This document shows positions 1,789 through 46,920 of a stretch of 64,000 bases of DNA, one piece after another (the first letter of the stretch is position 1; each line of letters opens with the position of its first letter). This DNA is from Candidatus Omnitrophota bacterium (GTDB lineage: Bacteria > Omnitrophota > Gorgyraeia > Zapsychrales > Fredricksoniimonadaceae), in assembly GCA_903860135.1 (NCBI GenBank), contig CAIOPG010000009.1, positions 175,805-239,804 of the forward strand. The letters are read 5' to 3'. The notes beneath the pieces are model-generated. The model was given only the letters and a program-made list of their open reading frames with translations. It was not told the DNA's origin and ran no database searches. Made by a program: the position numbers and the translations under genes.

Positions 1789-3243
1789 TCAATTCTCGGT
1801 AGACGTCAATTTCTTGTAAACACGGATCCCCTTGATCACGCTGATCGCGCTCTGGATCTGGTTGTCATTCTTCATCTGCTGATTCATTTCTTTCTCACGC
1901 CTGCGCTTCTCGATGGCGTTGGGATCATTAGCATCATCAGGTGCCAAAGCATCAAATATCTTGTTAACAGAATCTTCTTTTTGCAGTGTTTTGAGTGCTT
2001 TTGACTTAACGCCATCGGCATCATCTGAATTTTCTTCCGGTTGAACGATCCGTTCAACAACAATATCCGGCGTGATGCCAATTTCATGGATACACACACC
2101 TGAAGGTGTAAAATACTTGCTGGTCGTCAACCGTAACCCTGATCCGTCAGGCAAAGGAATCACGGACTGAACAGAACCTTTCCCGAAAGATTTTGATCCG
2201 AGCGTTACCGCGCGCTTGTTATCTTTAAGGGCCCCTGCCAGTATCTCACTGCCCGAAGCACTGCCCTCGTTGATCATGATAACAATAGGCCAGTCGGAAA
2301 ATTCATGGCTGGTATTGTGCGAAACACTGACTGTATTTTGAGTTGCATCACGGCCTCGAACGGAAACGATCGTCTTGCCATCCGGAAGAAATATTTCACT
2401 AATACGGATAGCCACACTCAGGAGACCACCGGGATTATTACGGACATCGAGGACAAGCGCGGTAGCACCCTGCTCCTTCAATTTTCTAAGCTCCTTCAAC
2501 ATTTGCTCGGTAGATTCTTCACGGAACTCAACAAGGCGTAAATAAGCGATGTTATCGCTAATGATGTGAGGATCCCTGATATCTTGGATATGTATAATCT
2601 CGCGTGTAATATCGTATTCATGGATCTTGAACTCAGATTCACGCATGATGGTGATATGAACCTTGGTGCCCGGATTACCGCGCAACTTCTTGACCGCCTG
2701 GCTGATCGTAATGTCCCGGGTCGTATCCTTCTCTATCTTGACAATGCGGTCACCGGCCTTGATACCGGCTTTCCATGCCGGCGTGCCTTCAATGGGCGTA
2801 ATAACCGTCAACAGATTATCCCGGATCGCTATTTCAATACCCAACCCTCCGAATTTCCCTTCGGTGTCAGACTTCAATTCTTCGTATTCTTCGGGCGAAA
2901 GAAACTGGCTATGCGGGTCAAGCGCCCCCAGCATACCTGTCAAGGCCCCGTAAATCACTTCTTTGGGCTTCTTTTCATCCACATACTCACTCATGATCTT
3001 GGTGAGCGCATAACTGAAAAGTTCAACCTGTGAATAAAGATCCTCTGGTGATTTCGGCGCAAACTCTTTCTTAACCGGCGCGACAACCGCATTCACCGAT
3101 ACAGGAGAAAAACTGGAGTCTTCGTCCAGACTATTTACTGCCTGAGAATAAACCGGCACAGAAAAACCGGCGAAGCCCACAGCTACCATGATAATAAAGA
3201 AAATTTTTCTAACCATCCGCAAGCCTCCTGGCAATGATCTCAT
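1789..3243 (-). CDS. ctpA: Carboxyl-terminal processing protease (S41 peptidase) with PDZ domain
   Basis: 484 aa with signal peptide/TM, PDZ-like region and S41 core (NNPGGLLSVAIRIS ... GSASGSEILAGAL). The start may be the internal MVRK, near 3216. Confidence 0.85.
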   Translation of the reverse strand: MRSLPGGLRMVRKIFFIIMVAVGFAGFSVPVYSQAVNSLDEDSSFSPVSVNAVVAPVKKEFAPKSPEDLYSQVELFSYALTKIMSEYVDEKKPKEVIYGALTGMLGALDPHSQFLSPEEYEELKSDTEGKFGGLGIEIAIRDNLLTVITPIEGTPAWKAGIKAGDRIVKIEKDTTRDITISQAVKKLRGNPGTKVHITIMRESEFKIHEYDITREIIHIQDIRDPHIISDNIAYLRLVEFREESTEQMLKELRKLKEQGATALVLDVRNNPGGLLSVAIRISEIFLPDGKTIVSVRGRDATQNTVSVSHNTSHEFSDWPIVIMINEGSASGSEILAGALKDNKRAVTLGSKSFGKGSVQSVIPLPDGSGLRLTTSKYFTPSGVCIHEIGITPDIVVERIVQPEENSDDADGVKSKALKTLQKEDSVNKIFDALAPDDANDPNAIEKRRREKEMNQQMKNDNQIQSAISVIKGIRVYKKLTSTEN

Positions 3244-4645
3244 TGATCTTTTTGGGATTCGCTTTTCCCTGCATTTTCTTCATGGCTTGACCGACCAGAA
3301 AACCTGTAACCCCGGCCTTGCCTGCGCGAATTTCTTCAACGGCCTTGGGATTAGCCGCCAGTATCTCATCCACAGTATTGAAAAGAACGGCGTCATCAGA
3401 AACCTGCGCCAGTCCTTTAGCGTTGATGATGACGTCAGCGTCACCACCTCCCACAACCATTTCAGCCAATACTTCCTTGCCGGCAAGATTGCTGATCGTC
3501 CCGTCTTCAACACGGGCGATCAATTTAACGAGATTCTCCGCCGACAGGCTGATCCCCGAGAGCGAACAGTTACGGTCATTCAATTCCTTCATGACCGGTC
3601 CGTTGAGCCAGTTGGCCGCCTTCTTGGGGTCTGCGCCAGCACGGACACAGGCTTCGAAGAAATCAGCAAAGCCCTGATCCTGGATGAGGATGGCCGCATC
3701 ATAGTCGTTGACCGCATAATCGCGTTTGAAGCGCGCCTGCTTGGCCGCAGGAAGTTCCGGCAGATTGCGGCGGGCTTCATCAATCATGGCAGTTGAAAAA
3801 GTAAAAGGCACAAGGTCGGGATCGGGGAAATAACGGTAATCATGGGCATTCTCTTTGGAACGCATCGAGACGGTCCGTCCCTTGGCCTCATCCCATAAAA
3901 GAGTTTCCTGCGTGATCTTCCCGCCGCCAACAATGACTCCCTCATGCCGCGCCGCTTCAAACTCAACCGCACGCCTGAGCGCACTGAAAGAGTTCAGGTT
4001 CTTCAACTCTGTCTTAACGCCGAGCGTTGTTGCCCCCACGGGACGTATGGAAACATTCGCATCACAACGCAAACTGCCTTTTTCCATGTCGCAATCAGAA
4101 ACACCGAGATAGGAAAGGATCAGCTTGAGGGTCGTCAAATAATCATACGCTTCGAGCGCCGAACGCATATCCGGCTCGGAAACGATCTCGATCAACGGGG
4201 TCCCTGTGCGGTTATAATCTGCCAAGGAGTAATTGTTCGCATGGTCATGGATAAGCTTGCCGGCATCTTCCTCGATATGTGCCCGGGTGATACCCACACG
4301 CTTTTCTTTGCCACCGGAAATAAAAACGACCTCGCCTTTAGTCGCAATGGGAAGATCATACTGCGAGATCTGATACCCTTTGGGCAGATCAGGATAAAAA
4401 TAATTCTTACGGTCAAACTTGATGAACGTATTGATCTGGCAACCCAGCGCCAGGCCAACCTTCATGCCGTCCAGAAGGACCTGACGGTTCAAGACAGGCA
4501 GAGAGCCAGGCAAACCCAGGCAAACCGGGCAAACATGACTATTGGCTGTACCGCCAAAGACATTGGGGCAAGAACAAAATATTTTTGTTTTGGTCTTAAG
4601 CTGGAGATGGACCTCAAGCCCGATCACTGTTTCAAAAGTGCTCAT
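3209..4645 (-). CDS. gatB: Asp/Glu-tRNA(Asn/Gln) amidotransferase subunit B
   Basis: 478 aa. N-terminus [26 protein letters not shown] and GatB/YqeY C-terminal domain. Confidence 0.95.
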
Positions 4646-8914: not shown

Positions 8915-9865
8915 CACCAGTCCTGCGGCGAGCTTGATCGCCGCACGCATAGAGCCAGGATCCGCCAAGCCTTTGCCTGCAATACCAAAAGCCGTGCCAT
9001 GCGCCGGTGACGTGCGGATAAAAGGCAGACCTGCCGTCACATTGACCAGACGATCGAAATAACACGCTTTCAACGCCGGCAACGCCTGGTCGTGATACAT
9101 GGCAACGATCAGATCATACCCGGTGCTCAACCCCGGCTCAAAAAGGGTGTCCGCCGGCAACGGTCCAACCACATCCCACCCGGCTTTGCAGGCCTTCTTT
9201 ACCGCCGGCATGATCTGGGTGATCTCCTCACGCCCCATATGCCCGCCTTCTCCGGCATGCGGATTAAGACCACAAACCGCGATCCGAGGTCGCTGGATAT
9301 GGAAATGATCCCGGATAAAAGCTGACGCTGTCCCTACAACCGAAAGAACCTTTTCTGCCGTGATCAAATCAGGGATTTCTTTCAATGCCACATGCCGTGT
9401 CACAAGCACAACGCGCAACGCATCGGCGACAAAAAGCATCTCCACATCCTTGATGGCAAAAGCATCAGCCAGAAAAGTCGTATGTCCTTTAAACCCCGGA
9501 TAAAAAGGGATAACAGCTTCCTTCGACAAAGGGGCTGTCACAAGACCGTCAACCGCACCGGCCTTCAAAAGTTTCACCGCACATTCAAGATATAAAAGAG
9601 AATCACGACCCGATCCCGGCGTAGGACAACCCGGCTTGTGTGGCACCATACAACGGCTGTCCGCCAGATGAATGACGGACGGCAAAGGGATCTTGGAGGG
9701 CCAGTAGCGCGCCAGCAGCTCTTCATTGCCGATGACGATAAATTCCACCTTCCGGCAAGTGGCATCGCCCTTCAAACTGGCCAGCGCGGCGGCCGTTACT
9801 TCAGGGCCGATACCGCAAGGATCTCCGAGCGTTACCGCGATAACCTTATTTCTTGATTTCGACAT
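8912..9865 (-). CDS. pdxA: 4-hydroxythreonine-4-phosphate dehydrogenase
   Basis: 317 aa. VTLGDPCGIGPEV N-terminus and PdxA core. surA-pdxA-ksgA order matches E. coli. Confidence 0.9.
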   Translation of the reverse strand: MSKSRNKVIAVTLGDPCGIGPEVTAAALASLKGDATCRKVEFIVIGNEELLARYWPSKIPLPSVIHLADSRCMVPHKPGCPTPGSGRDSLLYLECAVKLLKAGAVDGLVTAPLSKEAVIPFYPGFKGHTTFLADAFAIKDVEMLFVADALRVVLVTRHVALKEIPDLITAEKVLSVVGTASAFIRDHFHIQRPRIAVCGLNPHAGEGGHMGREEITQIMPAVKKACKAGWDVVGPLPADTLFEPGLSTGYDLIVAMYHDQALPALKACYFDRLVNVTAGLPFIRTSPAHGTAFGIAGKGLADPGSMRAAIKLAAGLV

Positions 9866-10799
9866 ATGATTTCTTCCTCAAACTCTCCAGCCATAACGGA
9901 AACTTCTGCCTGAATTTTTCATCAAATAATAACTGGTATATCTCCTCCTTCACGATCTCAAACGCCGTTACGGTCCCCTCCGTCCTTCCTGCCAGCTTCA
10001 AGATATACAATCCTTCGGGGATCGCAACGATATCTGAAACATCTCCAGGCTTCATGGTATCAATGACAGACTTGAACTGGTCGTTGAGATTCCCCTCATC
10101 AACTTCACCGATGTCTGGTAATTCGGAATACACCTTGGCGACAGCTTGAAAATCCTCGCCAGACCGGACACGTTCAAGAGCCGCACGCATAACGGCATAT
10201 GGTTGTTCATCAGTCAATCCCCCCTTGACAGCGATAGCATTAAGGTAGACCCGCGCATGCTTACGGTAACGTTCAATATTATCATTATAATAATCAGTTA
10301 CTTCCCTGGGATTGACAGCGATCTTTTCGCGCACAGCGCGTGTCACGATATAACGCGCCTTAAACTGCTCCTCAATCTTTTTACGAATATCAGAAATGGT
10401 CACGCCTTCCTTGTTGATCGCGGACAAAAACTCCTGCGTCGACGTGTATTTTTTCTTGATCTCTGTCAGCCGGTCTTCGATCGCCTGCGGGCGTATCTGC
10501 ATGCCCTGCCTGTTGGCCTCGGCCAGGATAAGCCGGTCATCGACGAGTTGATCGACTCCCTTGGCTTCATACTGCTGCATGATCCCCTTTATTTCAGTAT
10601 CCGTACGCCCCTCAATGCGCAACTGGGCATATATACCACGCAAATAATCCTGTAAATCTTTGGCCGTGATAACATCGTCGTCAACGACCGCAATGATCGC
10701 ATCCTCAACCGCTAATGCAAAAGGCATTGGCCTCACCAGCAATGCCGCGCCCAAGAACAGTGTGATCAACAACAAACGCCAGCAACCATTCATCCGCAT
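9846..10799 (-). CDS. surA: SurA-like periplasmic chaperone / parvulin-type peptidyl-prolyl isomerase
   Basis: 317 aa with signal peptide, SurA N-terminal chaperone-like region and a PpiC parvulin domain. Confidence 0.75.
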   Translation of the reverse strand: MRMNGCWRLLLITLFLGAALLVRPMPFALAVEDAIIAVVDDDVITAKDLQDYLRGIYAQLRIEGRTDTEIKGIMQQYEAKGVDQLVDDRLILAEANRQGMQIRPQAIEDRLTEIKKKYTSTQEFLSAINKEGVTISDIRKKIEEQFKARYIVTRAVREKIAVNPREVTDYYNDNIERYRKHARVYLNAIAVKGGLTDEQPYAVMRAALERVRSGEDFQAVAKVYSELPDIGEVDEGNLNDQFKSVIDTMKPGDVSDIVAIPEGLYILKLAGRTEGTVTAFEIVKEEIYQLLFDEKFRQKFPLWLESLRKKSYVEIKK

Positions 10800-10801
10800 C
10801 C

Positions 10802-12721
10802 TCAGGCTCCTTTTTCTTTTAATTCCCGCCGTAAATGCTCAACCGACTCGCGTAAAAGACGGCAATAAAGGTCAAACCCTATTGACGCAATATAACCATG
10901 CTGCTGTTCGCCCAGCAAATTCCCGGCCCCGCGGATCTGCAGATCCTCAAATGCGATATTGAACCCTGCGCCGAGATCAGTGAACTTGGCCAGTGCATCC
11001 AGCCGTTGGCGCGCCACCCCGGAAATTTGTCCTTGCTCGGGTACAATGAAATAAGCATACGCCTTAACATCCATCCGCCCCACCCTGCCACGCAGTTGAT
11101 GCAGATCCGCAAGCCCGAATCGGTCCGCCCGATTGACAATAAGCGTATTGGCATTGGGTATATCAATCCCAGATTCTATTATAGTAGTGCAAACCAAACA
11201 ATCAACCTCGCGCTTGAGAAATTTAAGCATGACCTCTTCAAGCATACGGCCCGGCATCTGCCCGTGCCCCACCGCCAGCCGCACGCGCGGTACCAGGCGC
11301 TGGATCAACCTTGCGATCGGATCAATATCCTCGACATGATTATGCAGAAAGAAAACCTGCCCTCCGCGCCTGAGTTCCTGATCTATCGCGGCGCCAATAA
11401 CCTCCTCATCAAAATGGATCATGTGGGTGGAGACCGGTATCCGGTTCTGGGGCGGTGTCGCAATCACCGACATGTCGCGCGCTCCTGCCATGGCCATATA
11501 GAGCGTACGCGGAATAGGTGTCGCTGTCAAGGTCAGCACGTCTGCCAGCAATTTCATGTGCTTAAGGCGTTCTTTAGCCGTCACCCCGAAGCGCTGTTCC
11601 TCGTCAATGATAATAAGCCCGAGATCCTTGAAGGCGACATCTCCTGACAAAAGCCTGTGGGTACCGATGAGGATATCCACTTTCCCTTCTCGGGTTTGCG
11701 CAACAATGGCTGCCTGCTCAGCCTTGGTCCGAAAACGTGACAACATCCCCACGCGCACCGGAAAATCCTGCAGTCGCTTCACAAAATTAAAATAATGCTG
11801 TTCGGCAAGCACCGTCGTCGGCACAAGGACCGCCACCTGCTTGCCAGCCATAACGGCCTTGAAAGCGGCACGCATAGCCACCTCGGTCTTGCCATAGCCC
11901 ACGTCACCACACAAAAGGCGGTCCATCGGCTGAAGGGCTTCCATATCCGCCTTGACCTCAGCGGCGGCTTTGTCTTGATCGGGCGTGGCTGTAAAAGGAA
12001 ATTTCTTTTCAAACTCAACCTGCCATGAAGTGTCCGGTGGAAAAGGAAAACCCTTCAGGCTCTCCCGCACCGCCTGAACATGCAAAAGGCCGGCCGCCAG
12101 ATGCTGGAGGCGTTTTTCGATCTGACGCTTGACCTTCTCCCAGGTCCTGCTGCCCAGCGTGAAAAGACGCGGCGGTCTTTTGGTAAAACTGATATATTTC
12201 TGCACCAGATGCAAGTCATGCCGCGGCACATAAAGCTTATCGCCGCCCTCATATTCAATGACAAAATGCGCCAGCTTCCCGGTACCAGACTCAACATCTT
12301 TGATGCCCAGGAAACGGCCGATCCCGTGGACATTGTGAACAACATAATCCCCGCGCTCAATATCAATAAAATGATTGAGGGGCATATCAGCCGTGAACGG
12401 AATAACTTTCTTATGGTCCGCCGGACGCGTGGTACGCACCGGAAGAATAATCAGCGCCTTATGCTCCCATATATTCTTGCCGGTGAGCATATTGTAGGTA
12501 TAAATACGCCGCACACAATCATCGTCCATGTCCATACGGACAGGCGCATCAAAATTAACCGGGAAGATATCAATGATACTGCCGCGCACAGCGCATTGGC
12601 CGGGCTCTGCCACATGCTTGACACGGGCATAACCAAAACGAACGAGATCAACAACAATACTTTCCAGCGGGATGGTCTGGGAAATGAAATACTGCAGGGA
12701 TTTAAACATACTTAAAACCAA
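10802..12721 (-). CDS. mfd: Transcription-repair coupling factor Mfd, minimal 639-aa form (D2 + RNAP-interacting domain + RecG-like translocase; lacks D1a, D1b/D3 and D7)
   Basis: N-terminus aligns with E. coli Mfd D2 (GQCAVRGSIIDIFP vs GEYATRGALLDLFP). Roughly 20 aa later it runs into the RID (GDYVVHNVHGIGRF..KLYVP). The helicase has full motifs I-VI and a TRG motif (GDVGYGKT, DEEQRFGV, LTATPIPRT, QLRGRVGR) and ends about 25 aa after the TRG. The start is TTG at 12721 or ATG at 12709. An in-frame stop sits immediately upstream, adjacent to the secDF stop. Confidence 0.85.
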   Translation of the reverse strand: MVLSMFKSLQYFISQTIPLESIVVDLVRFGYARVKHVAEPGQCAVRGSIIDIFPVNFDAPVRMDMDDDCVRRIYTYNMLTGKNIWEHKALIILPVRTTRPADHKKVIPFTADMPLNHFIDIERGDYVVHNVHGIGRFLGIKDVESGTGKLAHFVIEYEGGDKLYVPRHDLHLVQKYISFTKRPPRLFTLGSRTWEKVKRQIEKRLQHLAAGLLHVQAVRESLKGFPFPPDTSWQVEFEKKFPFTATPDQDKAAAEVKADMEALQPMDRLLCGDVGYGKTEVAMRAAFKAVMAGKQVAVLVPTTVLAEQHYFNFVKRLQDFPVRVGMLSRFRTKAEQAAIVAQTREGKVDILIGTHRLLSGDVAFKDLGLIIIDEEQRFGVTAKERLKHMKLLADVLTLTATPIPRTLYMAMAGARDMSVIATPPQNRIPVSTHMIHFDEEVIGAAIDQELRRGGQVFFLHNHVEDIDPIARLIQRLVPRVRLAVGHGQMPGRMLEEVMLKFLKREVDCLVCTTIIESGIDIPNANTLIVNRADRFGLADLHQLRGRVGRMDVKAYAYFIVPEQGQISGVARQRLDALAKFTDLGAGFNIAFEDLQIRGAGNLLGEQQHGYIASIGFDLYCRLLRESVEHLRRELKEKGA

Positions 12722-12723: not shown

Positions 12724-12767
12724 AAAAACCCCGGTCCCGGCAAGCGTTGGCCTGTCGGAACCGGGGG
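12724..12767 (-). terminator. Intrinsic terminator/attenuator-like hairpin between secDF and mfd
   Basis: Minus strand reads CCCCGG-(26 nt loop)-CCGGGG followed by TTTTT. The mfd TTG start lies directly after the U-tract. Confidence 0.45.
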
Positions 12768-12783
12768 AAAGAATTGCCTCACA

Positions 12784-14985
12784 TCACTGCCACTTCTTGT
12801 GCGACAACAGCACCAGCGGCGTGACGATGAACATGGTGGAATAAACACCGCACACAAAGCCGATGATCAAAACCAGTGAAAACGTGTTGAGCACTTCACC
12901 GCCGAAAATAAAAAGAGCAATGACAACAAGGAGCGTGACAAACGTGCTCAGCACCGTACGCCCAAGTGTCTGGTTGATGCTCAGGTTGATGACCTCGGCG
13001 AGCGAAAGCTTGCGGTTCTTGGCCGCGTTCTCGCGCACACGGTCAAACACGACGATCGTATCATTGACGGAATACCCCGCGATGGTTAAGAGTGCCGTCA
13101 CGACCAGAAGGTCGATCTGACGCCCCATCATGACGGAAAGCCCCAACGCCATCAGGATGTCATGGATCAAGGCAGCAACGCCGGCCGCGGCAAATCCAAA
13201 GTTCTTGAAACGGATCCCCACGTAGATCAAGATAGATGCCAGCGCTAAAAGGATCGCCCACAGCGCACGTTCACGCAGGGCTTTCCCGACAACGGGACCG
13301 ACCTTTTCAATGCGCAATGTCTCAAAGCTGTTATCCTTGAATTCCTTCTTGAAGATCGCCACAACCTTCTCGTACGTATCCTCGCTCGAACGAACGATCA
13401 CATCTTCGGGATTCTTGTCGAATTGCTGGATCACCGCGTCCTTGATATCCGCATCCTTCAACGCCTTGCGCAGGCTGTCAGCGGAAACAGCTTGCTTGAA
13501 GCGGTATTCCTGGACCTGACCGCCGGCGAAATCTATACCGTAGGCCATATCTTTCTTGGAAATGATCGCAAAAAGACCGGCCGCTGTGATCACCGCCGAA
13601 ATGATCAGGAAGAAATACATCGGCTTCACAAAGTCGATATTGGTCTGTTTGAACAAACGCATCATCTTGAGCGTCGTGAGTTTGCGCTTTTCAAGCAGGA
13701 AATCAAACATGGCGCGTGTGATATAAACAGCCGTAAACAGACTGGCCGCCAGACCGATGCTGAGCGTGATCGCGAAACCTTTGATTGGGCCGGATCCAAA
13801 CTGAAAAAGCAGGAATGAAGCGATCAGCGACGTGACATGCGAGTCAATGATCGCGCTCAATGCCCGGTCATACCCGCTGGCGACCGCCGCCGCCAGTGTC
13901 CGCCCGTTCTCCAATTCTTCCCGGATACGTTCATTGATAAGAACATTCGCGTCAACCGCCATCCCGAGTGTCAGGACGATACCCGCAATACCCGGCAAGG
14001 TCAGCGTGACCTGCGACCCCGGCATCATGACATTGATGAACCCCATCGCGCCGACGATCATCACAAGGTTCAGGATCAAGGCCACCGAAGCGATCATCCC
14101 GCCGATCCAGTAATAAATGATCATAAAAGCAAGGACAAAGAGCGAGCCGAACACAGTGGCGCGAATACCGGCATCAATGGAATCCTTGCCGAGCAAAGGC
14201 CCGATGGTGCGTTCTTCTTCCACATACATCGGCACAGGCAAAGAACCGGAACGCAACGCCAGCGCCAGCACAAACGATTCGTCATACGTGAACTGCCCGG
14301 ATATCTCCGCCGTCCCCGTCATGATCGCTTCCCTGATATTGGGCGCGGAAAGCACCTCGCCATCCATGACAATGGCCAGTCGTTCCCCCACATGCTTGCT
14401 GGTAAGATCAGCAAAATCCTTGGTGCCTTTCCCGTTGAAAGCCAGGGATATTTTGGGCAACATGGACTGTGAATCAAAATCAACCTTGGCATCCGAAATA
14501 GCATCACCCTGCAAGATCGCCTGCGCCTGAACAAGGATGGCTTCCCTGTTATCACCCTTGGCGTACTTAAGCTCAAGCCCTTCGGGAACTTTCCCGGCCA
14601 GCGCATCTTTTAATTTGGCCGGATCATTGTCCACAAGCCTGAATTCCAGGTGCGCGACGCGCTTGACCATATCCACAGCCCTGTCACGGTCGGTAACCCC
14701 CGGAAGTTGAACAAGGATCTGGTCTTCACCCTGGCGCTGGATCGCCGTCTCACCGACTCCCATGCTGTCGATGCGATTGCGCAGGATTTCCATCGCGCGC
14801 AACACAGCATCCTCTTTCTTGGTCTTGTCAGCGAGCTTGGAAGTATCAACCTTCAGGATAAGATGCATCCCGCCCTTCAGGTCAAGGCCAAGGTTAATAC
14901 GCTTTTGGATCGGCCAGGCAAACGCCACGCAAGCAACAATGACACCAAGGATGATCAGGAACCGGGTGCGAAGATTCTTACTCAT
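12784..14985 (-). CDS. secDF: Protein translocase subunit SecDF (fused)
   Basis: 733 aa. N-terminal SecD periplasmic domain plus two 6-TM SecD/SecF modules. Confidence 0.9.
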   Translation of the reverse strand: MSKNLRTRFLIILGVIVACVAFAWPIQKRINLGLDLKGGMHLILKVDTSKLADKTKKEDAVLRAMEILRNRIDSMGVGETAIQRQGEDQILVQLPGVTDRDRAVDMVKRVAHLEFRLVDNDPAKLKDALAGKVPEGLELKYAKGDNREAILVQAQAILQGDAISDAKVDFDSQSMLPKISLAFNGKGTKDFADLTSKHVGERLAIVMDGEVLSAPNIREAIMTGTAEISGQFTYDESFVLALALRSGSLPVPMYVEEERTIGPLLGKDSIDAGIRATVFGSLFVLAFMIIYYWIGGMIASVALILNLVMIVGAMGFINVMMPGSQVTLTLPGIAGIVLTLGMAVDANVLINERIREELENGRTLAAAVASGYDRALSAIIDSHVTSLIASFLLFQFGSGPIKGFAITLSIGLAASLFTAVYITRAMFDFLLEKRKLTTLKMMRLFKQTNIDFVKPMYFFLIISAVITAAGLFAIISKKDMAYGIDFAGGQVQEYRFKQAVSADSLRKALKDADIKDAVIQQFDKNPEDVIVRSSEDTYEKVVAIFKKEFKDNSFETLRIEKVGPVVGKALRERALWAILLALASILIYVGIRFKNFGFAAAGVAALIHDILMALGLSVMMGRQIDLLVVTALLTIAGYSVNDTIVVFDRVRENAAKNRKLSLAEVINLSINQTLGRTVLSTFVTLLVVIALFIFGGEVLNTFSLVLIIGFVCGVYSTMFIVTPLVLLSHKKWQ

Positions 14986-19876: not shown

Positions 19877-21100
19877 TTATTTAAACCTGACATTAACCGA
19901 TTCCGCGTGTTTGACAAGACCCTCGATCATGGCAATGCGCTCGAGCGATTCGCGTACTTTCTCCAGCGCCTTCCTGGAATAAGAGACGATGTGGCTTGTC
20001 TTCATAAAACTGGAAAGGCTCAATCCCGACGCAAAACGCGCCGTCCCTAATGTGGGCAGGACATGGCTTGGCCCGGCCACATAATCGCCCAGCGGTGTCG
20101 GGCTGTACGGCCCCAGGAAAATAGCCCCGGCATGACGGATCATTTTGGCCACATTGGCAGGGTCGCTGGTCAGGATCTGCAAATGTTCGGGCGCGAGCCT
20201 GTTGGCGATCTCGCACGCGGCTTCCATGTTCTTGGCATAAATGACATAACCGCCCTGAACACGATTCCTGACCTGACGGATCAACTGCTTGGATGTCGAC
20301 ACAAGGATGGCAAGCCCGCCGGAATGCTCGATCTGCGATTCAAGGTCAGCCACCACATAATCAGGATTGCTCAGGCGATTGGCGATCACCACCAGTTCGG
20401 TAGGACCGGCGAGCATGTCAATATCCACATAACCAAAAAGCTGACGTTTGGCCTCGGTGACATAGGCATTGCCCGGCCCGACGATCTTGTCTACCCGGGG
20501 GATCGTGCGCGTCCCAAAAGCCAGCGCCGCGATCGCCTGTGCCCCGCCGACCTTATAAACTTCATTCACATTCAACAGATTCGCCACCGCCAGGATATGC
20601 GGATTCACATGCCCGTCCTTCCCGGGAGGTGTCAGGATCACGATCCGTTTCACACCCGCGATCTTCGCCGGGACAACGGTCATGTACACCGAAGACACCA
20701 ACGGTGCCGTTCCCGCCGGGATATAGACCCCCACCGTATCGATCGGACGGAATTCTTCTTTCAGAAGAATCCCGTCTTCACTCTTGATACAGCAGGGCTT
20801 CTTGATCTGACTGCGATAAAAAGCCGTCACATTATGGATAACCATCTTGAGCGTCGCGACAAATTCCGGCTTGATATTCTGAAAGGCACCGCTGATCTCG
20901 CTCTCGGCCACGCGCAGATCTCGGGGTGAAAGCTTGACATGATCGAACCGGGCGGTATATTTCAATACGGCTTCATCCCCGTGCAGGCGAATATCCTCGA
21001 CGATCCGCGCCACCTTGCTGACCACACTTTTGCGGCGATAATAAAGATTCCTGTCATAAAGCTGGTAAACAGCCTTGCTGTTTGACTTTAACAATTTCAT
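19877..21100 (-). CDS. hisD: Histidinol dehydrogenase
   Basis: 407 aa. HisD core (GVYIPAG...AGPTELVVIA...GDYVAGPSHVLPT). Confidence 0.9.
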   Translation of the reverse strand: MKLLKSNSKAVYQLYDRNLYYRRKSVVSKVARIVEDIRLHGDEAVLKYTARFDHVKLSPRDLRVAESEISGAFQNIKPEFVATLKMVIHNVTAFYRSQIKKPCCIKSEDGILLKEEFRPIDTVGVYIPAGTAPLVSSVYMTVVPAKIAGVKRIVILTPPGKDGHVNPHILAVANLLNVNEVYKVGGAQAIAALAFGTRTIPRVDKIVGPGNAYVTEAKRQLFGYVDIDMLAGPTELVVIANRLSNPDYVVADLESQIEHSGGLAILVSTSKQLIRQVRNRVQGGYVIYAKNMEAACEIANRLAPEHLQILTSDPANVAKMIRHAGAIFLGPYSPTPLGDYVAGPSHVLPTLGTARFASGLSLSSFMKTSHIVSYSRKALEKVRESLERIAMIEGLVKHAESVNVRFK

Positions 21101-23757
21101 AACGAAAGAACCCCTTTCACGATCTTCGCCGCCTCTGCCATCGCCTCAGGCAACCTCGACGGTTCCTTGCCGCCAGCCTGCGCCATATTCGGCTTGCCGC
21201 CACCCGACCCGCCGATAAGAGGCGCGACTGTACGGATAATATCACCGGCCTTGATGCCCCTGGCCACAAGGTCATCCGTCACCGCGATCAGAAAAGCCGC
21301 CTCTGACGGTCCGGCGTCAGCACCGAGCAAATGAACAGATGATGAACATTTCTGTTTGATCATGTCAGATACACGGCGCAAGGTATCCATATCGACATCC
21401 TTGAATATATGCGCCAGGATCAAACTGCCACCGACCTTTTCAGCACCGGCTAAAACAGCATCAAGCCCGCTCCGGATAATATCAAAATTAAGAGTACTCA
21501 CTTCTTTCTGAAGCCCATTCAGTCGCAGCGACTGCTGTTCAATGCGCGCCGGAAGATCATCTGCGGCAACCTTGAGCGCCTGCGCCGCCTTATCAAGGAT
21601 CAACTCACGCCCGCGCACATAAGCCATGGCACCAGCCCCCGTCACCGCTTCAATGCGGCGAATACCCTGCGCCACCGCCCCTTCGGTCACGATCCTGAAG
21701 AAACCGATCTGCCCGGTAGCCGACACATGTGTGCCACCGCAAAATTCTTTGGAATGATCGCCGACCGTCACCACACGCACGGTATCCCCGTATTTCTCGG
21801 CAAAAAAAGCCAGTGCCCCGCTGGTGGCCGCCTGTTCGCGCGTCATTTCCGTCATCGCCACAGGTTCACAGGAACGGACAAGCCTGTTGACCATATCCTC
21901 GATCTTCTCGATCTCCGCACGGCCGACAGCTTTCGGATGCGTGAAATCAAACCGCAAACGGTCAGCATCAACCAGCGATCCCTGCTGTTTCACATGTTCT
22001 CCAAGGATCATGCGCAATGCCGCCTGCAAAAGATGGGTCGCTGTATGATTGCGCGCCACAGCCATACGCCGTTCGCCGTCGATAGCTGATTTGACAGCCG
22101 CAAGGGCCTTGCATACGCCTTTTTCGACAATCGCCGCATGCACATAAACATCCGCCACCTTGCGCACATGCTGCACCCGCAGTACACAGCCCTGCCCTGA
22201 TATCACACCGATATCCGCGCACTGCCCTCCCTGCTCGGCATAAAATGGCGTCTTGTCGAGCACAACAGTAACTTGACTGCCTTCAAGCGCTTCATCCACG
22301 GCCTGCGCCCCTACAAAGACTTTAAGAACAATACTTTCACACGCCGGCTGATCGTAACCAACAAAAATGGTCTTGGGCAAGCCCTTCACATCCACGTCGC
22401 CCGACAAAAACACATCGCCCTGCATCTTGCTGGCCGCGCGTGAACGCTCCTTCTGCGCGTCCATCTTTTTCTCAACAACGCGCATAACCCCCGCATGGAT
22501 ATCCGCCGCGAAGTTTGCACGTATCCTGGCCTCAATCAGATTCAGCGGCAGGCCGTAAGTGTCGCGGTAACCAAACATTTTCTCGCCGATCTCGGCGACC
22601 AATCCCGCCCCAGACGACTGGCGGGCTTTGATCTCCGCCAGATACGCATCAAGTTCAGGCACTTTTTCACGATTAAGCTTGATCACAGACTCCTCGACAC
22701 GCCTTACCGTTTCAACAATATCTTTTTCCTTGCCCAAAAGTTCAGGATACGGTGCCTGCATCAGCTGGACAACCTCGTGAACAAAGGTATGGATCAAGGG
22801 TTTTGTCACCCCTGCCTGGATCAGGATATTGGCCATGTCCACAACGAGTTTGCGCATCACATAGCCGCGCCCTTCATTGGAAGGAATAACCCCGTCGCAA
22901 ATACCAAAAGTCACGGCCCGGATATGATCCGTGATCAAACGGGTTTCACGCAAAGGCAGGGGGGCTCCCTGTGCGGCAACGGCTTGCTTCACCGCCGCCA
23001 TCACCGGGGCAAAAAGGTCAGACTCAAAATTATTCCGTTTGCCCTGCAGTACCGCGGTCAAACGCTCCAGCCCCATACCGGTATCAATATTCTTCGCCGG
23101 TAACGGTTCTAGGACACCGCCGTCCCTACGGTTATACTGCGTGAAAACAAGATTCCAAACCTCGCAAAAACGACCACAACTGCAATCAGGATCGCACGAA
23201 GGATTGGAACAACCATTAACGCCCCAATCAAAAAATATTTCCGAACAAGGCCCACAGGGGCCGTTGGGACCGTTCAACCGCGCATTCGACGGCCAGAAGT
23301 TGGATTTATCGCCAAGCTTGACGATGCGGCTCGACGGGAGCTGGATCTCATTCAACCATATCCCGTAAGCCTCCGCATCATCCTTATGCACAGAAACCCA
23401 GAGTTTCTCACCGGGGATACCCATTTCCAGAGTCAGGAATTCCCACGCCCAGGTGATCGCCTCACGCTTGAAATAATCCCCAAAAGAGAAATTGCCGAGC
23501 ATCTCGAACATCGTATGATGGAAATCCGTAACACCAACCTCGGTCAAGTCATCGGTGCGCAGGCATTTTTGTGATGTGGCCGCTCGCGCAAAACCCGTCA
23601 AATGCCCCATGAACTGCGGTTTGAACTGCTGCATCCCCGCTGTGGTGAAGAGCACCGTCGGATCATCCTTGGGTACAAGCGAATCACTCGCAATGACCGC
23701 ATGCCCCTTGGACTTGAAAAACTCGAGAAACTTTGTACGAATAGCATGCCCGGTCAT
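21097..23757 (-). CDS. alaS: Alanine--tRNA ligase
   Basis: 886 aa. Class II catalytic core, editing domain (HTATHLL) and C-terminal DHHA1-like region. Confidence 0.95.
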   Translation of the reverse strand: MTGHAIRTKFLEFFKSKGHAVIASDSLVPKDDPTVLFTTAGMQQFKPQFMGHLTGFARAATSQKCLRTDDLTEVGVTDFHHTMFEMLGNFSFGDYFKREAITWAWEFLTLEMGIPGEKLWVSVHKDDAEAYGIWLNEIQLPSSRIVKLGDKSNFWPSNARLNGPNGPCGPCSEIFFDWGVNGCSNPSCDPDCSCGRFCEVWNLVFTQYNRRDGGVLEPLPAKNIDTGMGLERLTAVLQGKRNNFESDLFAPVMAAVKQAVAAQGAPLPLRETRLITDHIRAVTFGICDGVIPSNEGRGYVMRKLVVDMANILIQAGVTKPLIHTFVHEVVQLMQAPYPELLGKEKDIVETVRRVEESVIKLNREKVPELDAYLAEIKARQSSGAGLVAEIGEKMFGYRDTYGLPLNLIEARIRANFAADIHAGVMRVVEKKMDAQKERSRAASKMQGDVFLSGDVDVKGLPKTIFVGYDQPACESIVLKVFVGAQAVDEALEGSQVTVVLDKTPFYAEQGGQCADIGVISGQGCVLRVQHVRKVADVYVHAAIVEKGVCKALAAVKSAIDGERRMAVARNHTATHLLQAALRMILGEHVKQQGSLVDADRLRFDFTHPKAVGRAEIEKIEDMVNRLVRSCEPVAMTEMTREQAATSGALAFFAEKYGDTVRVVTVGDHSKEFCGGTHVSATGQIGFFRIVTEGAVAQGIRRIEAVTGAGAMAYVRGRELILDKAAQALKVAADDLPARIEQQSLRLNGLQKEVSTLNFDIIRSGLDAVLAGAEKVGGSLILAHIFKDVDMDTLRRVSDMIKQKCSSSVHLLGADAGPSEAAFLIAVTDDLVARGIKAGDIIRTVAPLIGGSGGGKPNMAQAGGKEPSRLPEAMAEAAKIVKGVLSL

Positions 23758-24248
23758 GATCCTGTCCTTCCTGCCGATAGAACTTTATGAATAACATCCG
23801 CCGAGAAGCCGCGGCGGAGCAGATAATCCGTCATACGCCTGTTTCTTTGGAATGGCTCGAGATCTTTATAATGCGCCATTTTCTTCTCGACCAGCGCTAC
23901 CACCATCTCGCCTTCATTATAATCCGCACGAAGCTGATCCCATTCCCTGCGGACCAGCTCCGGTGCTATGCCCTTATCTTTAAGTTCAAGCGTTACACGC
24001 TTGATACCCAGCGGCCTTTGCAAACGGCAACGCAACCATGCCCGCGTAAAAGCCGGGTCATCGAGAAGCCCCCTGCGCACCAAAGAGGCAATGGTATCCT
24101 CGACCATCACTGCCGGATATGCCTTGCCCACCATTTTACGCCGCACCTCTTCGATGGCGCGCGGCCTGAATTTCAAAAGGCGTAACGCATAAACCTGCGC
24201 TTTTTTGCGGATGATCTCATCCATTACAGGAACATCCACCACACCCAT
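23754..24248 (-). CDS. recX: Regulatory protein RecX
   Basis: 164 aa helical-repeat protein directly downstream of recA. recA-recX-alaS order matches E. coli. Confidence 0.75.
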   Translation of the reverse strand: MGVVDVPVMDEIIRKKAQVYALRLLKFRPRAIEEVRRKMVGKAYPAVMVEDTIASLVRRGLLDDPAFTRAWLRCRLQRPLGIKRVTLELKDKGIAPELVRREWDQLRADYNEGEMVVALVEKKMAHYKDLEPFQRNRRMTDYLLRRGFSADVIHKVLSAGRTGS

Positions 24249-24250
24249 CC

Positions 24251-25300
24251 CTACTCGGCATGTTTTGAAGGTAACGGCACCACCTTGGACTTCTCCAGGA
24301 TCACCTTCTCGATCTTCTGAGCCACCTTCGGATTCTCCTGAAGATAACGGCGCACATTATCGCGCCCCTGGCCGATGCGCTCACCTTCAAAAGCAAACCA
24401 GGCGCCAGACTTATCGATCACATTGTATTTGGTCCCCATATCCACCAGATCGCTGGCCAAGGAAATGCCCTCGTCAAAATGGATCTCAAATTCAGCCTCT
24501 TTGAACGGGGCCGCGACCTTGTTCTTGACGATCTTGGCACGCACCCGGTTGCCGATCACCTCATCGCCCCTTTTGAGCGTCTCGATACGGCGCAGGTCAA
24601 TGCGCACCGATGAATAGAACTTCAGGGCATTACCGCCGGTCGTTGTTTCGGGATTACCGAACATCACGCCGATCTTCATACGGATCTGATTGATAAAAAT
24701 GAGGCAAGTATTGGACTTGCTCGTAACCGCCGTTAATTTCCGAAGGGCCTGCGACATCAGCCGCGCATGCAACCCCATATGACTATCGCCCATATCACCC
24801 TCGATCTCGGCCTTGGGCGTCAACGCGGCCACAGAATCAATGACAACCAGGTCTACAGCACTCGACCGCACCAGCGTTTCCGCGATCTCCAGGGCCTGTT
24901 CACCGGTATCAGGCTGAGACACCAGCAGGTCTTCCAACTTAACACCCAACCTGGCCGCATACGCCGCGTCAAAAGCATGTTCAGCATCGATGAACGCCGC
25001 CACCCCGCCTTTTTTCTGGATCTGATGGATCAGGCTCAGCGTCAACGTGGTCTTACCCGAAGATTCCGGGCCGTAGATCTCAACCACGCGCCCGCGCGGG
25101 ATACCACCCACGCCAAGGGCAATGTCAAGGGCAATAGAACCGGTCGGGATCGAATCCACATCAACACGGGCCTGCCCGTCGAGTTTCATGATAGACCCCT
25201 TCCCGAACTGCTTTTCGATCTGCGTCAGCGCAAGATCCAGCGCTTTCTTGCGGTTTTCTGTTTCCGCAGGCGACATTTTTTTGACTTCCGACATGTTCAT
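24251..25300 (-). CDS. recA: Recombinase RecA
   Basis: [18 protein letters not shown] and Walker [10 protein letters not shown]. The start is inferred at the MNMSEV ATG at 25300, which has a GGAGGA SD 4 nt upstream. The ORF-track start at 25348 is an extension. Confidence 0.95.
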
Positions 25301-25339
25301 TTCCTCCAATAAGATAATATTAATAAGAAGGGGTGGATG

Positions 25340-25368
25340 ATTATACAAAAGGAGGCTGTGATTGTCAA
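25340..25368 (-). promoter_or_regulatory. Consensus sigma70-type promoter of recA (TTGACA-N17-TATAAT)
   Basis: Minus strand reads gTTGACAatcacagcctccttttgTATAATcatcc. The -35 box (25363-25368) overlaps the stop of the upstream TMTC-like gene. The -10 box is at 25340-25345. No LexA-box-like palindrome between the -10 and the start. Confidence 0.6.
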
Positions 25369-30389: not shown

Positions 30390-30401
30390 ACCATTCCAAA
30401 A

Positions 30402-30818: not shown

Positions 30819-30836
30819 TACTTACCCCATTTCCAA

Positions 30837-31256: not shown

Positions 31257-31313
31257 ACATTTCCTTTTTTAGTGTTTTATTAGTATGTTCCTGCATTAAT
31301 AATATTTTTGGAA

Positions 31314-44127: not shown

Positions 44128-46920
44128 TTAAAGCTGGCGTTGCAGGAATGGACGCAAATACTGACCGGTGTATGATTCCGGGTGTGCCATCAGCCCTTCG
44201 GGAGTACCCGAGAATACCACACGGCCGCCGCGATCCCCACCATCTGGTCCAAGGTCTATGACATGGTCCGCTGATTTGATCACCTCGAGGTTATGCTCAA
44301 TGACAAGGACCGTGTTCCCCTTATCTACCAGCTGCTGAAGGACGCCGAGCAGTTTCTCGACATCAGCAAAATGCAGGCCTGTTGTTGGTTCATCCAGGAT
44401 ATACAGCGTCCTTCCTGTTGAAGGTTTGCAAAGCTCTGCCGCAAGTTTCACGCGCTGAGCTTCCCCGCCCGACAGCGTCGTGGCCGCCTGGCCGATCTTC
44501 ACATAACCAAGGCCAACCTCATTGATCACGCGCAATACCCGGGCAATACGGGGAATGTTGCCGAAGACCTCCAGTGCTTCGCTGATCGACATATCGAGCG
44601 TCTGACTGATATTCCTGCCTTTATATTCAACCTGCAAGGTCTGCTCGTTGAATCGCTGCCCATGACAAACAGCGCATTCCACATGAACATCCGGCAAGAA
44701 ATGCATTTCAATTTCTTTAACCCCGTCCCCCTGGCACGCTTCACAACGTCCGCCTTTAACATTAAAACTGAAACGCCCTGGACCATATCCCCTCAACCTG
44801 GATTCAGGAAGTCCGGAAAAAATAGAACGGATATCCGTAAAGACACCTGTATATGTTGCCGGATTTGACCGGGGTGTACGTCCTATCGGCGACTGATCAA
44901 CGACGATGACCTTGTCAATGGCGTCAAGTCCCTCAAGTTTCCTGTAAGCACCGGATTTCTCGCGGGATCCATAAAGATGACGCGCAAGCGCTTTATAAAG
45001 AACATCATAAACAAGCGTTGATTTCCCTGAACCGGAAACACCCGTTACGCATACAAAAACCCCCAGCGGGATATCAACATCAATATTCTTTAGATTATGT
45101 TCACTGACACCCTTTAAACGGATACAAGCTCCGCGCACAGCGGGCCGCCGTTGTGCCGGGATAGGAATACGGATAGATCCCTTAAGGTATTGCCCCGTCA
45201 ACGAATCTGAAATGGAAAGAATACCGTCAACAGGCCCCGCGTACATGATCTCCCCGCCGAACCGCCCCGCGCCCGGACCGAGATCCACCAGCCAGTCCGC
45301 ACTGCGGATCGTATCCTCATCATGTTCCACGACCACAAGGGTATTCCCCAGATCTCTGAGATCCCGTAAACTTGACAACAACCTTTCATTATCTTTTTGA
45401 TGGAGCCCGATAGACGGCTCATCCATCACATACACCACGCCGACGAGTCCGGAACCCACCTGCGTTGCCAGGCGGATGCGTTCAGCTTCCCCGCCGGATA
45501 GCGTTGAACTTTTACGGTCAAGCGTCAAATAATCCAGCCCCACATTGATACAAAAATCAAGCCGGCGAATGATCTCTTTAAGAACAGGTGCCGCAATGGT
45601 GCGTTCACCCCCCTCCAGTTGAAGCCCCAGAAAAAACTCCCGCGACTCCTGAATGGACATGCGCACGATCTCGGCAATGTTCTTGCCCTCAACAAGCACC
45701 ATCAGGGCTTCTTTCCTCAAACGCCGCCCTTCACACGCAGGGCATGGCGCTTCGGACATGAATTTTGAGATCTCCTCCTTGAGCCAGTCGCTCGGCGTCT
45801 CCCTGAACAAACGCTGGAGATAACCCGCGACCCCTTCAAACTTCTTGCCCCAGATAATGTCTTCGCCGCCAAAAAGAACCCTTTGTTTAAAATCCCGGGG
45901 AAGTTTATTGAACGGCATGGCCGGATCCATATCATAAAGCTTGGCTATTTCACGCAACACCGCCCGATAATACATCATGTATCCCCGCTGGCCCTTGCGC
46001 CAGGGAACAATGGCCGATACCCATGCTTTCTCCGGTGACGTGACCAATGTTTCAACATCGATCTCCATCCTTGTCCCGATACCATTGCAATCAGGGCATG
46101 CCCCATACGGAGAGTTGAAAGAAAATGTCCGCGGCTCAAGCTCCGGAAGATCGATCCCCTCATCGGGAACAGCAAAACTCTCGCTCATGACAAGATCTTC
46201 TGTCCCGTCTGTAAAACCGACAACAATAAAACCCTTGCCGACCCTGAGTGCCGTCTCGACCGAATCTGTCAAACGGGTTTTCACGTCTGGTCTGACTGAT
46301 AGGCGATCTACCACTATTTCGACAGAATGGATCTTATAACGATCAAATTTGATCTTGTCTTGAACATCATAAATATGCCCATCGACCCGTAGCCGCGCAA
46401 AACCCGCCTTGGCCACATCCCTACCGATGTGTGGATAGGTGCCCTTCTTCCCGCGGATATACGGCGCAAGGATATTGATCTTACTGCCCGCAGACAGTCG
46501 TAATATCCGTTCGACCATTTCCTGGGCAGACTGCTTCTCGAGCTTTTGCCCCATATAATAAGGAACACCGATCCTCGCGAACAACAGCCTCAAATAATCA
46601 TAAATTTCCGTCTGCGTGGCCACCGTTGACCTGGGATTACGGCTGATCGTTTTCTGTTCAATGGAGATCGTCGGGCTCAAGCCTTCGATCGACTCGACAT
46701 CCGGTTTCTGCACCTGATCGAGAAATTGGCGGGCATACGCTGAAAGGCTTTCCACATAACGCCGCTGCCCTTCAGCATAGATCGTATCAAAAGCCAGCGA
46801 AGACTTCCCAGAACCACTCAACCCCGTCACAACAATCAACTTGTTGCGGGGAAGCTCAAGGGAAATGTTCTTGAGATTATGTTCCCTGGCATTCTTGATA
46901 ACGATATTATTAAGTTGCAT
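44128..46920 (-). CDS. uvrA: Excinuclease ABC subunit A
   Basis: 930 aa. Two ABC ATPase modules ([18 protein letters not shown]), Zn-finger Cys clusters and ABC signature LSGGEAQR. Confidence 0.95.

What the first reader, a model, noticed from the sequence alone, without database searches (positions are those of the whole stretch)
10802..12721. Minimal 639-aa Mfd: UvrA-binding D2 joined almost directly to the RNAP-interacting domain, no D1a, D1b/D3 or autoinhibitory D7
Canonical Mfd is about 1150 aa. Here the reading frame is bounded upstream by an in-frame TGA right next to the secDF stop and by a hairpin-T5 element, so no N-terminal extension is possible. The protein ends about 25 aa after the TRG motif. 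Loss of D7, which masks D2 in E. coli Mfd, would predict a constitutively UvrA-accessible translocase that lacks the usual autoinhibition. All helicase motifs are intact, so it is not a pseudogene.
Basis: partly seen in the sequence, partly recalled or inferred. Interest (0 to 1): 0.7.

Follow-up and report, generated by a model that had tools for sequence, protein, structure and literature searches.

The report
Natural minimal Mfd of Omnitrophota
This is a real, intact and lineage-wide half-size version of the bacterial transcription-repair coupling factor Mfd that keeps only the UvrA-binding domain, the RNA-polymerase-binding domain and the DNA motor, so nature has already done the deletion experiment that shows which Mfd domains are dispensable.

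Summary
Window 10802..12709 (-) encodes a 635-aa protein (639 aa from an upstream TTG). It aligns to E. coli Mfd only at residues 129-215 (D2) and 467-990 (D4 RID, relay helix, D5, D6 with TRG). D1a, D1b, D3 and D7 are absent. All helicase and TRG motifs are invariant.

It is not an artefact.
- The 120 closest database proteins are all 614-655 aa.
- 71 complete genes from different Omnitrophota-type genomes are 625-668 aa (one is 433 aa). At most 74 open codons lie upstream in any of them.
- The gene order yajC-secDF-mfd-surA-pdxA-ksgA is conserved.
- The core clade is monophyletic (100/100 NJ bootstraps) and sits among full-length Mfds of other candidate phyla, so this is domain loss.
- No D1, D3 or D7 fragment was found in the 64-kb window or in 785 kb of related loci.

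UvrA, with its UvrB/Mfd-binding domain, lies in the same window. The D2 residues equivalent to R165 and R181 are invariant, but F185 is replaced by Asp or Glu.

The best reading is a functional transcription-repair coupling factor that lacks the D2:D7 clamp, comparable to engineered E. coli Mfd deltaD7. This is inferred, not tested. I found no paper describing it. Verdict: a new variant of a known kind, of moderate to high interest.

The parts
10802..12709 (-). Short mfd gene: 635 codons from the conserved ATG plus the TGA stop. An alternative TTG start at 12721 would give 639 aa.
   Evidence: P0001 is 100% identical and 635 aa; conserved MFxSLK N-terminus; TIGR00580 mfd scores 858 bits against a cutoff of 800
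12434..12697 (-). D2, the UvrB-domain-2-like UvrA-interaction domain (residues 5-92 in 635-aa numbering). It starts essentially at the N-terminus.
   Evidence: Pfam UvrB_inter, E = 4e-16. It aligns to E. coli Mfd 129-215. AF2 pLDDT is 85-92. The model's D2 matches UvrB domain 2 from the UvrA-UvrB complex 3fpn_B with TMt 0.90 and rmsd 1.3 A. The R165 equivalent is R in 121/122 short forms and the R181 equivalent in 122/122; F185 is Asp/Glu in 114/122.
12371..12433 (-). Variable, basic linker between D2 and the RID (residues 93-113). It replaces D1b and D3, which span about 250 aa in E. coli.
   Evidence: pLDDT below 50 for residues 93-115. Length and sequence vary across the clade. Mean pairwise identity is 0.40.
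12170..12370 (-). D4, the RNA polymerase interacting domain (residues 114-180).
   Evidence: Pfam CarD_TRCF_RID, E = 7e-16. It aligns to E. coli 467-547. The core GDYVVH..HGIG motif is invariant.
11990..12169 (-). Relay-helix region and the linker to the motor (residues 181-240).
   Evidence: Aligned to E. coli 548-600. AF2 predicts a long helix at 188-217.
11435..11989 (-). D5, translocase domain 1, with Walker A (GYGKT) and DEEQ (residues 241-425).
   Evidence: Pfam DEAD. 62% identical to E. coli D5 by tblastn. Motifs are invariant.
10835..11434 (-). D6, translocase domain 2, with motif VI, the TRG motif and the hook helix (residues 426-625).
   Evidence: Pfam Helicase_C. 52% identical to E. 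coli D6. The TRG residues R569, R593 and Q603 are conserved: R569 in 120/122 short forms (K in 2), R593 and Q603 in 122/122.
10805..10834 (-). Short, unconserved C-terminal tail (residues 626-635). D7 would follow here in canonical Mfd, but the stop comes instead.
   Evidence: Mean pairwise identity 0.26. No TRCF domain is found. The SurA-like ATG lies 2 nt after the stop.
12724..12766 (-). Hairpin followed by T5 in the 74-nt secDF-mfd spacer. It is a probable terminator or attenuator of secDF.
   Evidence: RNAfold gives -33.5 kcal/mol. Sequence shown. Not called by the simple scan.
12779..12781 (-). In-frame TGA that closes the mfd reading frame upstream.
44128..46920 (-). uvrA (930 aa), the presumed partner of D2. 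Its UvrB/Mfd-binding domain is present.
   Evidence: Pfam UvrA_inter 130-235, E = 4e-35. 53% identical to E. coli UvrA over the full length. R206, R216 and E222 (E. coli numbering) are conserved.
12784..14985 (-). Fused secDF gene, the conserved upstream neighbour.
9846..10799 (-). SurA-like PPIase gene, the conserved downstream neighbour. It is followed by pdxA and ksgA.

Best explanation
The gene encodes a genuine, selectively maintained minimal Mfd that is typical of a large Omnitrophota clade. It arose from a full-length Mfd by loss of D1a, of D1b plus D3, and of D7. What remains is a stand-alone D2, a flexible linker of about 20 residues, the RID, the relay helix, and the RecG-like motor with TRG and hook.

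Proposed mechanism:
1. The RID binds the beta protrusion of a stalled RNA polymerase.
2. The motor binds upstream duplex DNA, translocates with ATP and pushes the polymerase forward or off the DNA.
3. D2 has no D7 to mask it and no D1-D3 module to be repositioned. It is therefore exposed at all times on its tether and recruits UvrA2B through the conserved Arg pair.

The protein should consequently behave like engineered E. coli Mfd deltaD7. That means raised, DNA-stimulated ATPase activity, RNAP-independent translocation, and UvrA binding without prior loading.

Shown here: the architecture, motif integrity, conservation, monophyly of the core clade, synteny, and the presence of UvrA. Inferred: RNAP binding, UvrA binding and the loss of autoinhibition.
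For: - Architecture.
- Catalytic, TRG and RID motifs are invariant in 122 short forms.
- The R165 and R181 equivalents are invariant, and D2 folds confidently with the UvrB domain 2 fold.
- The form is lineage-wide. The 120 closest proteins are 614-655 aa. The 80 best genome loci are all of Omnitrophota type. 71 complete ORFs are 625-668 aa (one is 433 aa), with at most 74 open codons upstream. Synteny is conserved.
- The form is derived. Only 2 of the 150 best 50%-cluster representatives are short. The core clade has 100/100 NJ bootstrap support. Its tree neighbours are full-length Mfds that carry D7.
- No fragments of the missing domains occur in the window or in 785 kb of related loci.
- UvrA with an intact UvrB-binding domain lies 31 kb away.
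- Literature: Mfd 1-997 is derepressed for ATPase and translocation (PMC1874598). Mfd deltaD7 supports TCR and mutation frequency decline in vivo, whereas the D2 surface is essential (PMC3025350). The DNA wrap is made by the relay helix with the RID anchored, and both elements are retained here (PMC7864632). Thermus Mfd is already not autoinhibited (PMC13453472).
Against: - F185, one of three D2 residues proposed to contact UvrA, is Asp or Glu in 114 of 122 short forms. Neighbouring acidic residues (E. coli E188, E190) are Lys or Arg.
- The Pfam UvrB_inter score is lower than in the sister long forms: 59 bits against 76-93 bits.
- D2 carries clade-specific invariant residues (F53, H83, also N52, W81). 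The TRG region carries charge changes (R to E at E. coli 948, E to Q at 951). These could mark a new intramolecular contact, and hence a different form of regulation rather than none.
- The AF2 model is poor overall (pLDDT 66, pTM 0.48) and says nothing reliable about interdomain packing.
- No biochemical data exist. The genome outside the 64-kb window was not searched.
- UvrB of this lineage was not examined.
Confidence: 0.65

Rival explanations
1. The protein is a minimal Mfd that is still regulated. The remodelled D2 surface docks on the motor, TRG or hook (or on the RID) in the free protein. This would replace the D2:D7 clamp with a new intramolecular latch that RNAP or DNA binding releases.
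For: D2 has clade-specific, near-invariant residues (N52, F53, D54, W81, H83, G77). There are charge reversals at E. coli positions 185, 188 and 190. Signature changes are concentrated in the RID (6 of 13) and in the TRG region: R to E at position 948 and E to Q at position 951. The engineered deltaD7 protein slows TCR, possibly by sequestering UvrA (PMC3025350), so selection for some form of masking is plausible.
Against: There is no structural evidence. The AF2 interdomain confidence is low and the linker is predicted to be disordered. The signature changes could equally reflect relaxed constraint after loss of contacts with D1, D3 and D7, or co-evolution with the lineage's RNAP and UvrA.
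Confidence: 0.2
2. The protein is an RNAP-displacing or anti-backtracking translocase that no longer couples to nucleotide excision repair. D2 would be retained for folding or for a different partner.
For: F185 is lost and the hairpin that is EFFGDEIE in long forms reads DLDDDKIR here. D2 is the least conserved folded domain, with mean pairwise identity 0.51 against 0.72-0.78 for the motor. Natural Mfd variants without any detectable D2 exist, such as P0219 from Verrucomicrobia, so repair coupling is not obligatory.
Against: The R165 and R181 equivalents, described as critical for UvrA binding (PMC7385628, PMC3025350), are invariant. The complete D2 fold has been kept across hundreds of species while every neighbouring domain was deleted. 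UvrA with a conserved UvrB/Mfd-binding domain is present.
Confidence: 0.12
3. The short gene is an artefact or a pseudogene (frameshift, misassembly or truncated ORF), or one piece of a split gene whose other domains are encoded elsewhere.
For: Only that the rest of the genome could not be searched. One orthologue, L062, is closed after 433 aa.
Against: Independent assemblies from many studies give the same 625-668 aa gene, the same start and the same neighbours. Stop codons bound the frame on both sides. The motifs are intact. No D1, D3 or D7 similarity occurs in the window or in 785 kb of flanks, even when sister-clade sequences are used as queries.
Confidence: 0.03

Closest known systems
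Canonical Mfd / TRCF (E. coli Mfd, 1148 aa; PDB 2EYQ, 6X26 series)
   Same: The RID, relay helix, RecG-like SF2 motor, TRG motif and hook are shared, with about 52-62% identity in D5 and D6. The D2 fold and the Arg pair equivalent to R165/R181 are shared. The protein scores above the TIGR00580 cutoff.
   Different: D1a, D1b, D3 and D7 are missing. D2 is N-terminal and tethered directly to the RID. There can be no D2:D7 clamp and no D1-D3 gate. F185 is replaced by Asp or Glu.
Engineered E. coli Mfd deltaD7 (Mfd 1-997)
   Same: It ends at almost the same position, since the natural protein aligns to E. coli residue about 990. D2 is unmasked. The engineered protein is active in RNAP displacement and TCR and is derepressed (PMC1874598, PMC3025350).
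   Different: The engineered protein keeps D1a, D1b and D3. The natural one has lost these as well and has evolved with this architecture across a whole clade.
Thermus thermophilus Mfd (978 aa; PDB 6M6A, 13JQ)
   Same: It is a natural Mfd reported to be constitutively derepressed, with a mobile UvrB homology module (PMC13453472). It aligns to the query from the RID to the end of D6.
   Different: Thermus keeps all domains, including D7. Its derepression comes from dynamics, not from domain loss.
RecG
   Same: The same motor subfamily and the same TRG motif.
   Different: RecG has an N-terminal wedge domain and no RID or D2. All RecG models score far below their cutoffs, for example 400 against 718 bits.
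UvrB domain 2 (PDB 3FPN chain B, in complex with the UvrA interaction domain)
   Same: The predicted D2 superposes with TMt 0.90 and rmsd 1.3 A at 25% identity. Both match the same Pfam family.
   Different: In UvrB, and in canonical Mfd, the domain is an insertion in domain 1. Here it stands alone at the N-terminus.

Membership tests
Mfd / transcription-repair coupling factor | RecG-like SF2 translocase with motifs I-VI | tested here: met
   Pfam DEAD and Helicase_C. Walker A, DEEQ and motif VI are invariant in 122 clade members.
Mfd / transcription-repair coupling factor | TRG (translocation in RecG) motif and hook helix | tested here: met
   The equivalents of R929, R953 and Q963 are conserved: R929 in 120/122 short forms (K in 2), R953 and Q963 in 122/122. 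The alignment runs to E. coli residue 990.
Mfd / transcription-repair coupling factor | RNAP-interacting domain (CarD_TRCF_RID) N-terminal to the motor | tested here: met
   PF02559, E = 7e-16, residues 123-177.
Mfd / transcription-repair coupling factor | Complete UvrB homology module (D1a-D2-D1b) | tested here: not met
   Only D2 is present. E. coli residues 1-128 and 216-466 have no counterpart. There is no room upstream for them.
Mfd / transcription-repair coupling factor | C-terminal TRCF domain (D7, PF03461) | tested here: not met
   There is no PF03461 hit, whereas the sister long forms have it. The stop comes about 30 residues after TRG.
Mfd / transcription-repair coupling factor | Score above the curated cutoffs of the NCBIfam equivalog models | tested here: inconclusive
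   TIGR00580 scores 858 bits against a cutoff of 800, so it is met. NF007966 (PRK10689) scores 655 bits against a cutoff of 1329, so it is not met.
Mfd / transcription-repair coupling factor | D2 residues that bind UvrA (E. coli R165, R181, F185) | tested here: inconclusive
   R165 and R181 are conserved in 121-122 of 122 short forms. F185 is Asp or Glu in 114 of 122.
Mfd / transcription-repair coupling factor | Displaces stalled RNAP and stimulates repair of the template strand | not testable with these tools
   This needs biochemistry or genetics.
RecG | N-terminal wedge domain, and a score above the RecG equivalog cutoffs | tested here: not met
   The best RecG model scores 400 bits against a cutoff of 718. 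The N-terminus consists of D2 and the RID.

The most novel reading that the evidence does not exclude
A whole bacterial clade runs transcription-coupled repair with a three-module Mfd (D2, RID, motor). This Mfd would either be constitutively active, or be controlled by a new latch between the remodelled D2 and the TRG/RID region. Either way, the D2:D7 clamp and the ATP-driven repositioning of D1-D3, seen as central checkpoints in E. coli, would not be required for coupling.
Probability: 0.5. Interest if true: 0.7.

Novelty: new variant of a known kind. Interest (0 to 1): 0.58.

Why it matters
Current models of Mfd rest on the eight-domain E. coli protein. They give the D2:D7 clamp and the D1-D3 module key roles in autoinhibition, in kinetic proofreading of loading, and in timing of UvrA recruitment (PMC7864632, PMC3025350). 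A 2026 study argues that autoinhibition is not universal (PMC13453472).

A natural 635-aa Mfd, conserved across many Omnitrophota genomes, is an evolutionary deletion experiment. It defines the minimal domain set that selection keeps. It predicts that D2 on a flexible tether is sufficient for the hand-off to UvrA. It also offers a smaller and simpler protein for structural and single-molecule work. Finally, it raises the question of how these cells avoid the UvrA sequestration that is seen with unmasked D2 in E. coli.

Tried and rejected
- **Literature.** Seven full-text searches (an eighth failed on a term that was too short) found no paper on a natural short Mfd or on Mfd in Omnitrophota. 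The paper on the UvrA-Mfd D2 structure (PNAS 2012) and the paper on the UvrA-UvrB interaction domains are not held. The atomic UvrA contacts of positions 185-190 could therefore not be checked.
- **Missing domains.** tblastn with E. coli D1a, D1b, D3 and D7, and with the same regions of three sister long forms, found nothing in the window or in the 80 loci. The best D7 hit (E = 0.068) falls in recX and was dismissed as chance.
- **UvrB.** UvrB is neither in the window nor in the loci, so D2 could not be compared with the lineage's own UvrB domain 2.
- **Structure.** The AF2 model of the full protein has low overall confidence (pLDDT 66, pTM 0.48). It was used only for the D2 fold and the linker disorder, not for domain packing.
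- **Terminator.** The simple terminator scan missed the secDF-mfd hairpin. RNAfold was used instead.
- **Phylogeny.** Strict monophyly of all short forms, including the two divergent representatives P0121 and P0124, has only 63-66% NJ bootstrap support. Only the core clade is claimed as robust.
- **Genome scan.** The complete chromosome OY759724.1 could therefore not be searched for separately encoded fragments.
Full report
**The observation**

The window carries an ORF at 10802..12721 on the minus strand, 639 aa from a TTG. Four codons further in is an ATG (12709). That start opens the peptide MFKSLQYF, which is conserved at the very N-terminus of every relative. It also gives the 635-aa protein P0001, which is 100% identical in public data. 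I therefore take 635 aa as the real product.

The frame is closed 24 codons upstream of that ATG by a TGA at 12779-12781, two bases after the secDF stop. The 74-nt spacer folds into a hairpin of -33.5 kcal/mol followed by T5. The stop codon (10802-10804) is followed after two bases by the ATG of a SurA-like gene. So there is no room for extra domains at either end.

**What the protein is**

- Pfam finds UvrB_inter (14-95), CarD_TRCF_RID (123-177), DEAD (246-407) and Helicase_C (446-550). It finds no TRCF domain.
- The NCBIfam mfd equivalog TIGR00580 is passed (858 bits, cutoff 800). The full-length enterobacterial model is not passed, and the RecG models are far below their cutoffs.
- Against solved structures, the protein aligns to E. 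coli Mfd in two blocks only: 139-221 and 466-987.
- A MAFFT alignment of 122 short forms, 30 long forms and E. coli Mfd places the short forms on E. coli 129-215 and 467-990. These correspond to D2 and to D4 through D6 with the TRG motif and hook.
- D1a, D1b, D3 and D7 are missing.
- Walker A, DEEQ, motif VI, the TRG arginines and glutamine, and the RID core are invariant or nearly so in the 122 short forms; the only exception among these is K in 2 of 122 at the R929 equivalent.

**Is it real and lineage-wide?**

- The 120 best hits among 5.8 billion proteins are all 614-655 aa with the same domain list. They are 64-100% identical, and where named they come from Omnitrophota/Omnitrophica.
- I scanned one genome per GTDB species with an alignment of the D2-linker-RID region. 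The best 80 loci were all MAGs of Omnitrophota type. A few carry Planctomycetales, Elusimicrobia or other labels. In every one, D2 and the RID are contiguous within about 600 nt.
- In 71 loci where the gene is complete, the length from the conserved Met is 625-668 aa, with one case closed at 433 aa. The open frame upstream is 0-74 codons.
- The order yajC-secDF-mfd-surA-pdxA-ksgA, all on one strand, is kept in most loci.
- A frameshift, a misassembly or a pseudogene is therefore excluded.

**Origin**

Among the 150 best representatives of 50%-identity clusters, only two (P0121 at 642 aa and P0124 at 640 aa) are short. All the others are 975-1283 aa.

In a neighbour-joining tree of the D4-D6 region, the short forms group together with no long form inside. 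Bootstrap support is 100/100 for the core clade, 76 with P0121 added, and 63-66 with P0124 as well.

The neighbours in the tree are full-length Mfds that carry D2, the RID and D7. They come from Aerophobetes, Firestonebacteria, Calescamantes and NPL-UPA2, plus one protein labelled Omnitrophota. The short form is thus derived by loss. Because D2 is inserted within D1 in canonical Mfd, at least three deletions are needed: D1a, D1b plus D3, and D7.

**Are the missing domains elsewhere?**

tblastn with the E. coli domains, and with the D1a, D1b-D3 and D7 regions of three sister long forms, found nothing in the 64-kb window or in 785 kb around 80 orthologues. I could not search the rest of the genome.

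**The partner and the D2 surface**

UvrA is encoded in the same window (44128-46920, minus strand). It is 53% identical to E. coli UvrA, has the UvrB/Mfd-binding domain, and conserves R206, R216 and E222 in E. coli numbering.

In D2, the equivalents of E. coli R165 and R181 are invariant. These residues are buried against D7 in E. coli and are described as critical for UvrA binding (PMC3025350, PMC7385628). F185 is Asp or Glu in 114 of 122 short forms. The hairpin that reads EFFGDEIE in long forms reads DLDDDKIR here.

D2 also has its own near-invariant residues (N52, F53, D54, G77, W81, H83). The clade carries signature changes in the RID and in the TRG region, namely R to E at E. coli position 948 and E to Q at position 951.

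D2 is less conserved than the motor (0.51 against 0.72-0.78 mean pairwise identity) but is clearly under selection. AlphaFold2 folds D2 confidently (pLDDT 85-92) and leaves residues 93-115 disordered. The whole model is weak (pLDDT 66, pTM 0.48). The modelled D2 superposes on UvrB domain 2 from the UvrA-UvrB interaction-domain crystal (3fpn_B, TMt 0.90, rmsd 1.3 A). All Mfd structures are the top hits for the full chain.

**How it most likely works**

1. The RID anchors the protein to a stalled RNA polymerase.
2. The motor translocates on upstream DNA and drives the polymerase forward or off.
3. D2, always exposed on a flexible tether, brings in UvrA2B.

Published work on E. coli supports each part.
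- Mfd 1-997 (deltaD7) has more than 5-fold higher ATPase activity and translocates without RNAP (PMC1874598).
- Mfd deltaD7 supports TCR and mutation frequency decline in vivo, whereas deleting the UvrB homology module or mutating the D2 surface abolishes them. TCR by deltaD7 is slower, possibly because unmasked D2 sequesters UvrA (PMC3025350).
- The topological wrap around DNA is made by the unfolding relay helix while the RID stays anchored. D1-D3 act as a gate that must be displaced (PMC7864632). The short form keeps the RID, the relay helix and the motor.
- Thermus Mfd shows that autoinhibition is not universal (PMC13453472).

These steps are inferred for the Omnitrophota protein. None is tested here.

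**Rivals**

- The remodelled D2 and TRG surfaces may form a new latch, so the protein would be regulated differently rather than unregulated.
- D2 may have lost UvrA binding, which would leave an RNAP-clearing translocase. A Verrucomicrobia Mfd with no detectable D2 (P0219) shows that such variants exist.
- The artefact and pseudogene reading is refuted. The split-gene reading is unlikely but has not been excluded genome-wide.

**Novelty**

Databases name these proteins transcription-repair coupling factor automatically. Seven full-text searches found no paper that describes a natural short Mfd or Mfd in Omnitrophota. I rate it a new variant of a known kind. It should interest Mfd specialists as a natural minimal system, but it is not a new kind of machine.

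Noticed in passing
window 29578-36745 (-): A cluster resembling a type IV pilus or type II secretion system. It holds a secretin (35243-36745), a T2SSE ATPase (33524-35233), a T2SSF platform protein (32282-33508) and six tandem prepilin-like genes with N-methylation motifs (29578-32222). Three of the six share an identical first ~40 residues.
   Followed up: partly
window 23754-25348 (-): recA followed by recX, immediately upstream of alaS (21097-23757). Together with uvrA at 44128-46920, this shows that the window carries a normal DNA-repair gene set.
   Followed up: partly
window 47064-47348 (-): A 94-aa lysine-rich ORF just upstream of uvrA with no Pfam match.
   Followed up: no
window 63450-63833 (-): A PIN-domain ORF, probably a VapC-like toxin, near the end of the window.
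   Followed up: no
L062 (MHGM01000026.1) 2482-3780: This is the only orthologue whose mfd frame closes early, after 433 aa. It may be a frameshift, a pseudogene or an assembly error in that MAG.
   Followed up: no
P0219 (Verrucomicrobia, 975 aa): An Mfd variant with the opposite pattern. The RID, motor and D7 are present, but no D2 (UvrB_inter) is detectable in its 250-aa N-terminal region. Mfd domain content seems to vary more in the PVC group than the textbook picture suggests.
   Followed up: partly
short-Mfd clade, E. coli positions 948 and 951 (query E588, Q591): There are charge changes in the TRG hairpin. The position that is Arg in 110 of 148 long forms is Glu in all short forms examined. 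The position that is Glu in 141 of 148 long forms is Gln in 20 of the 22 short forms compared there. Six of the 13 clade signature positions lie in the RID.
   Followed up: partly
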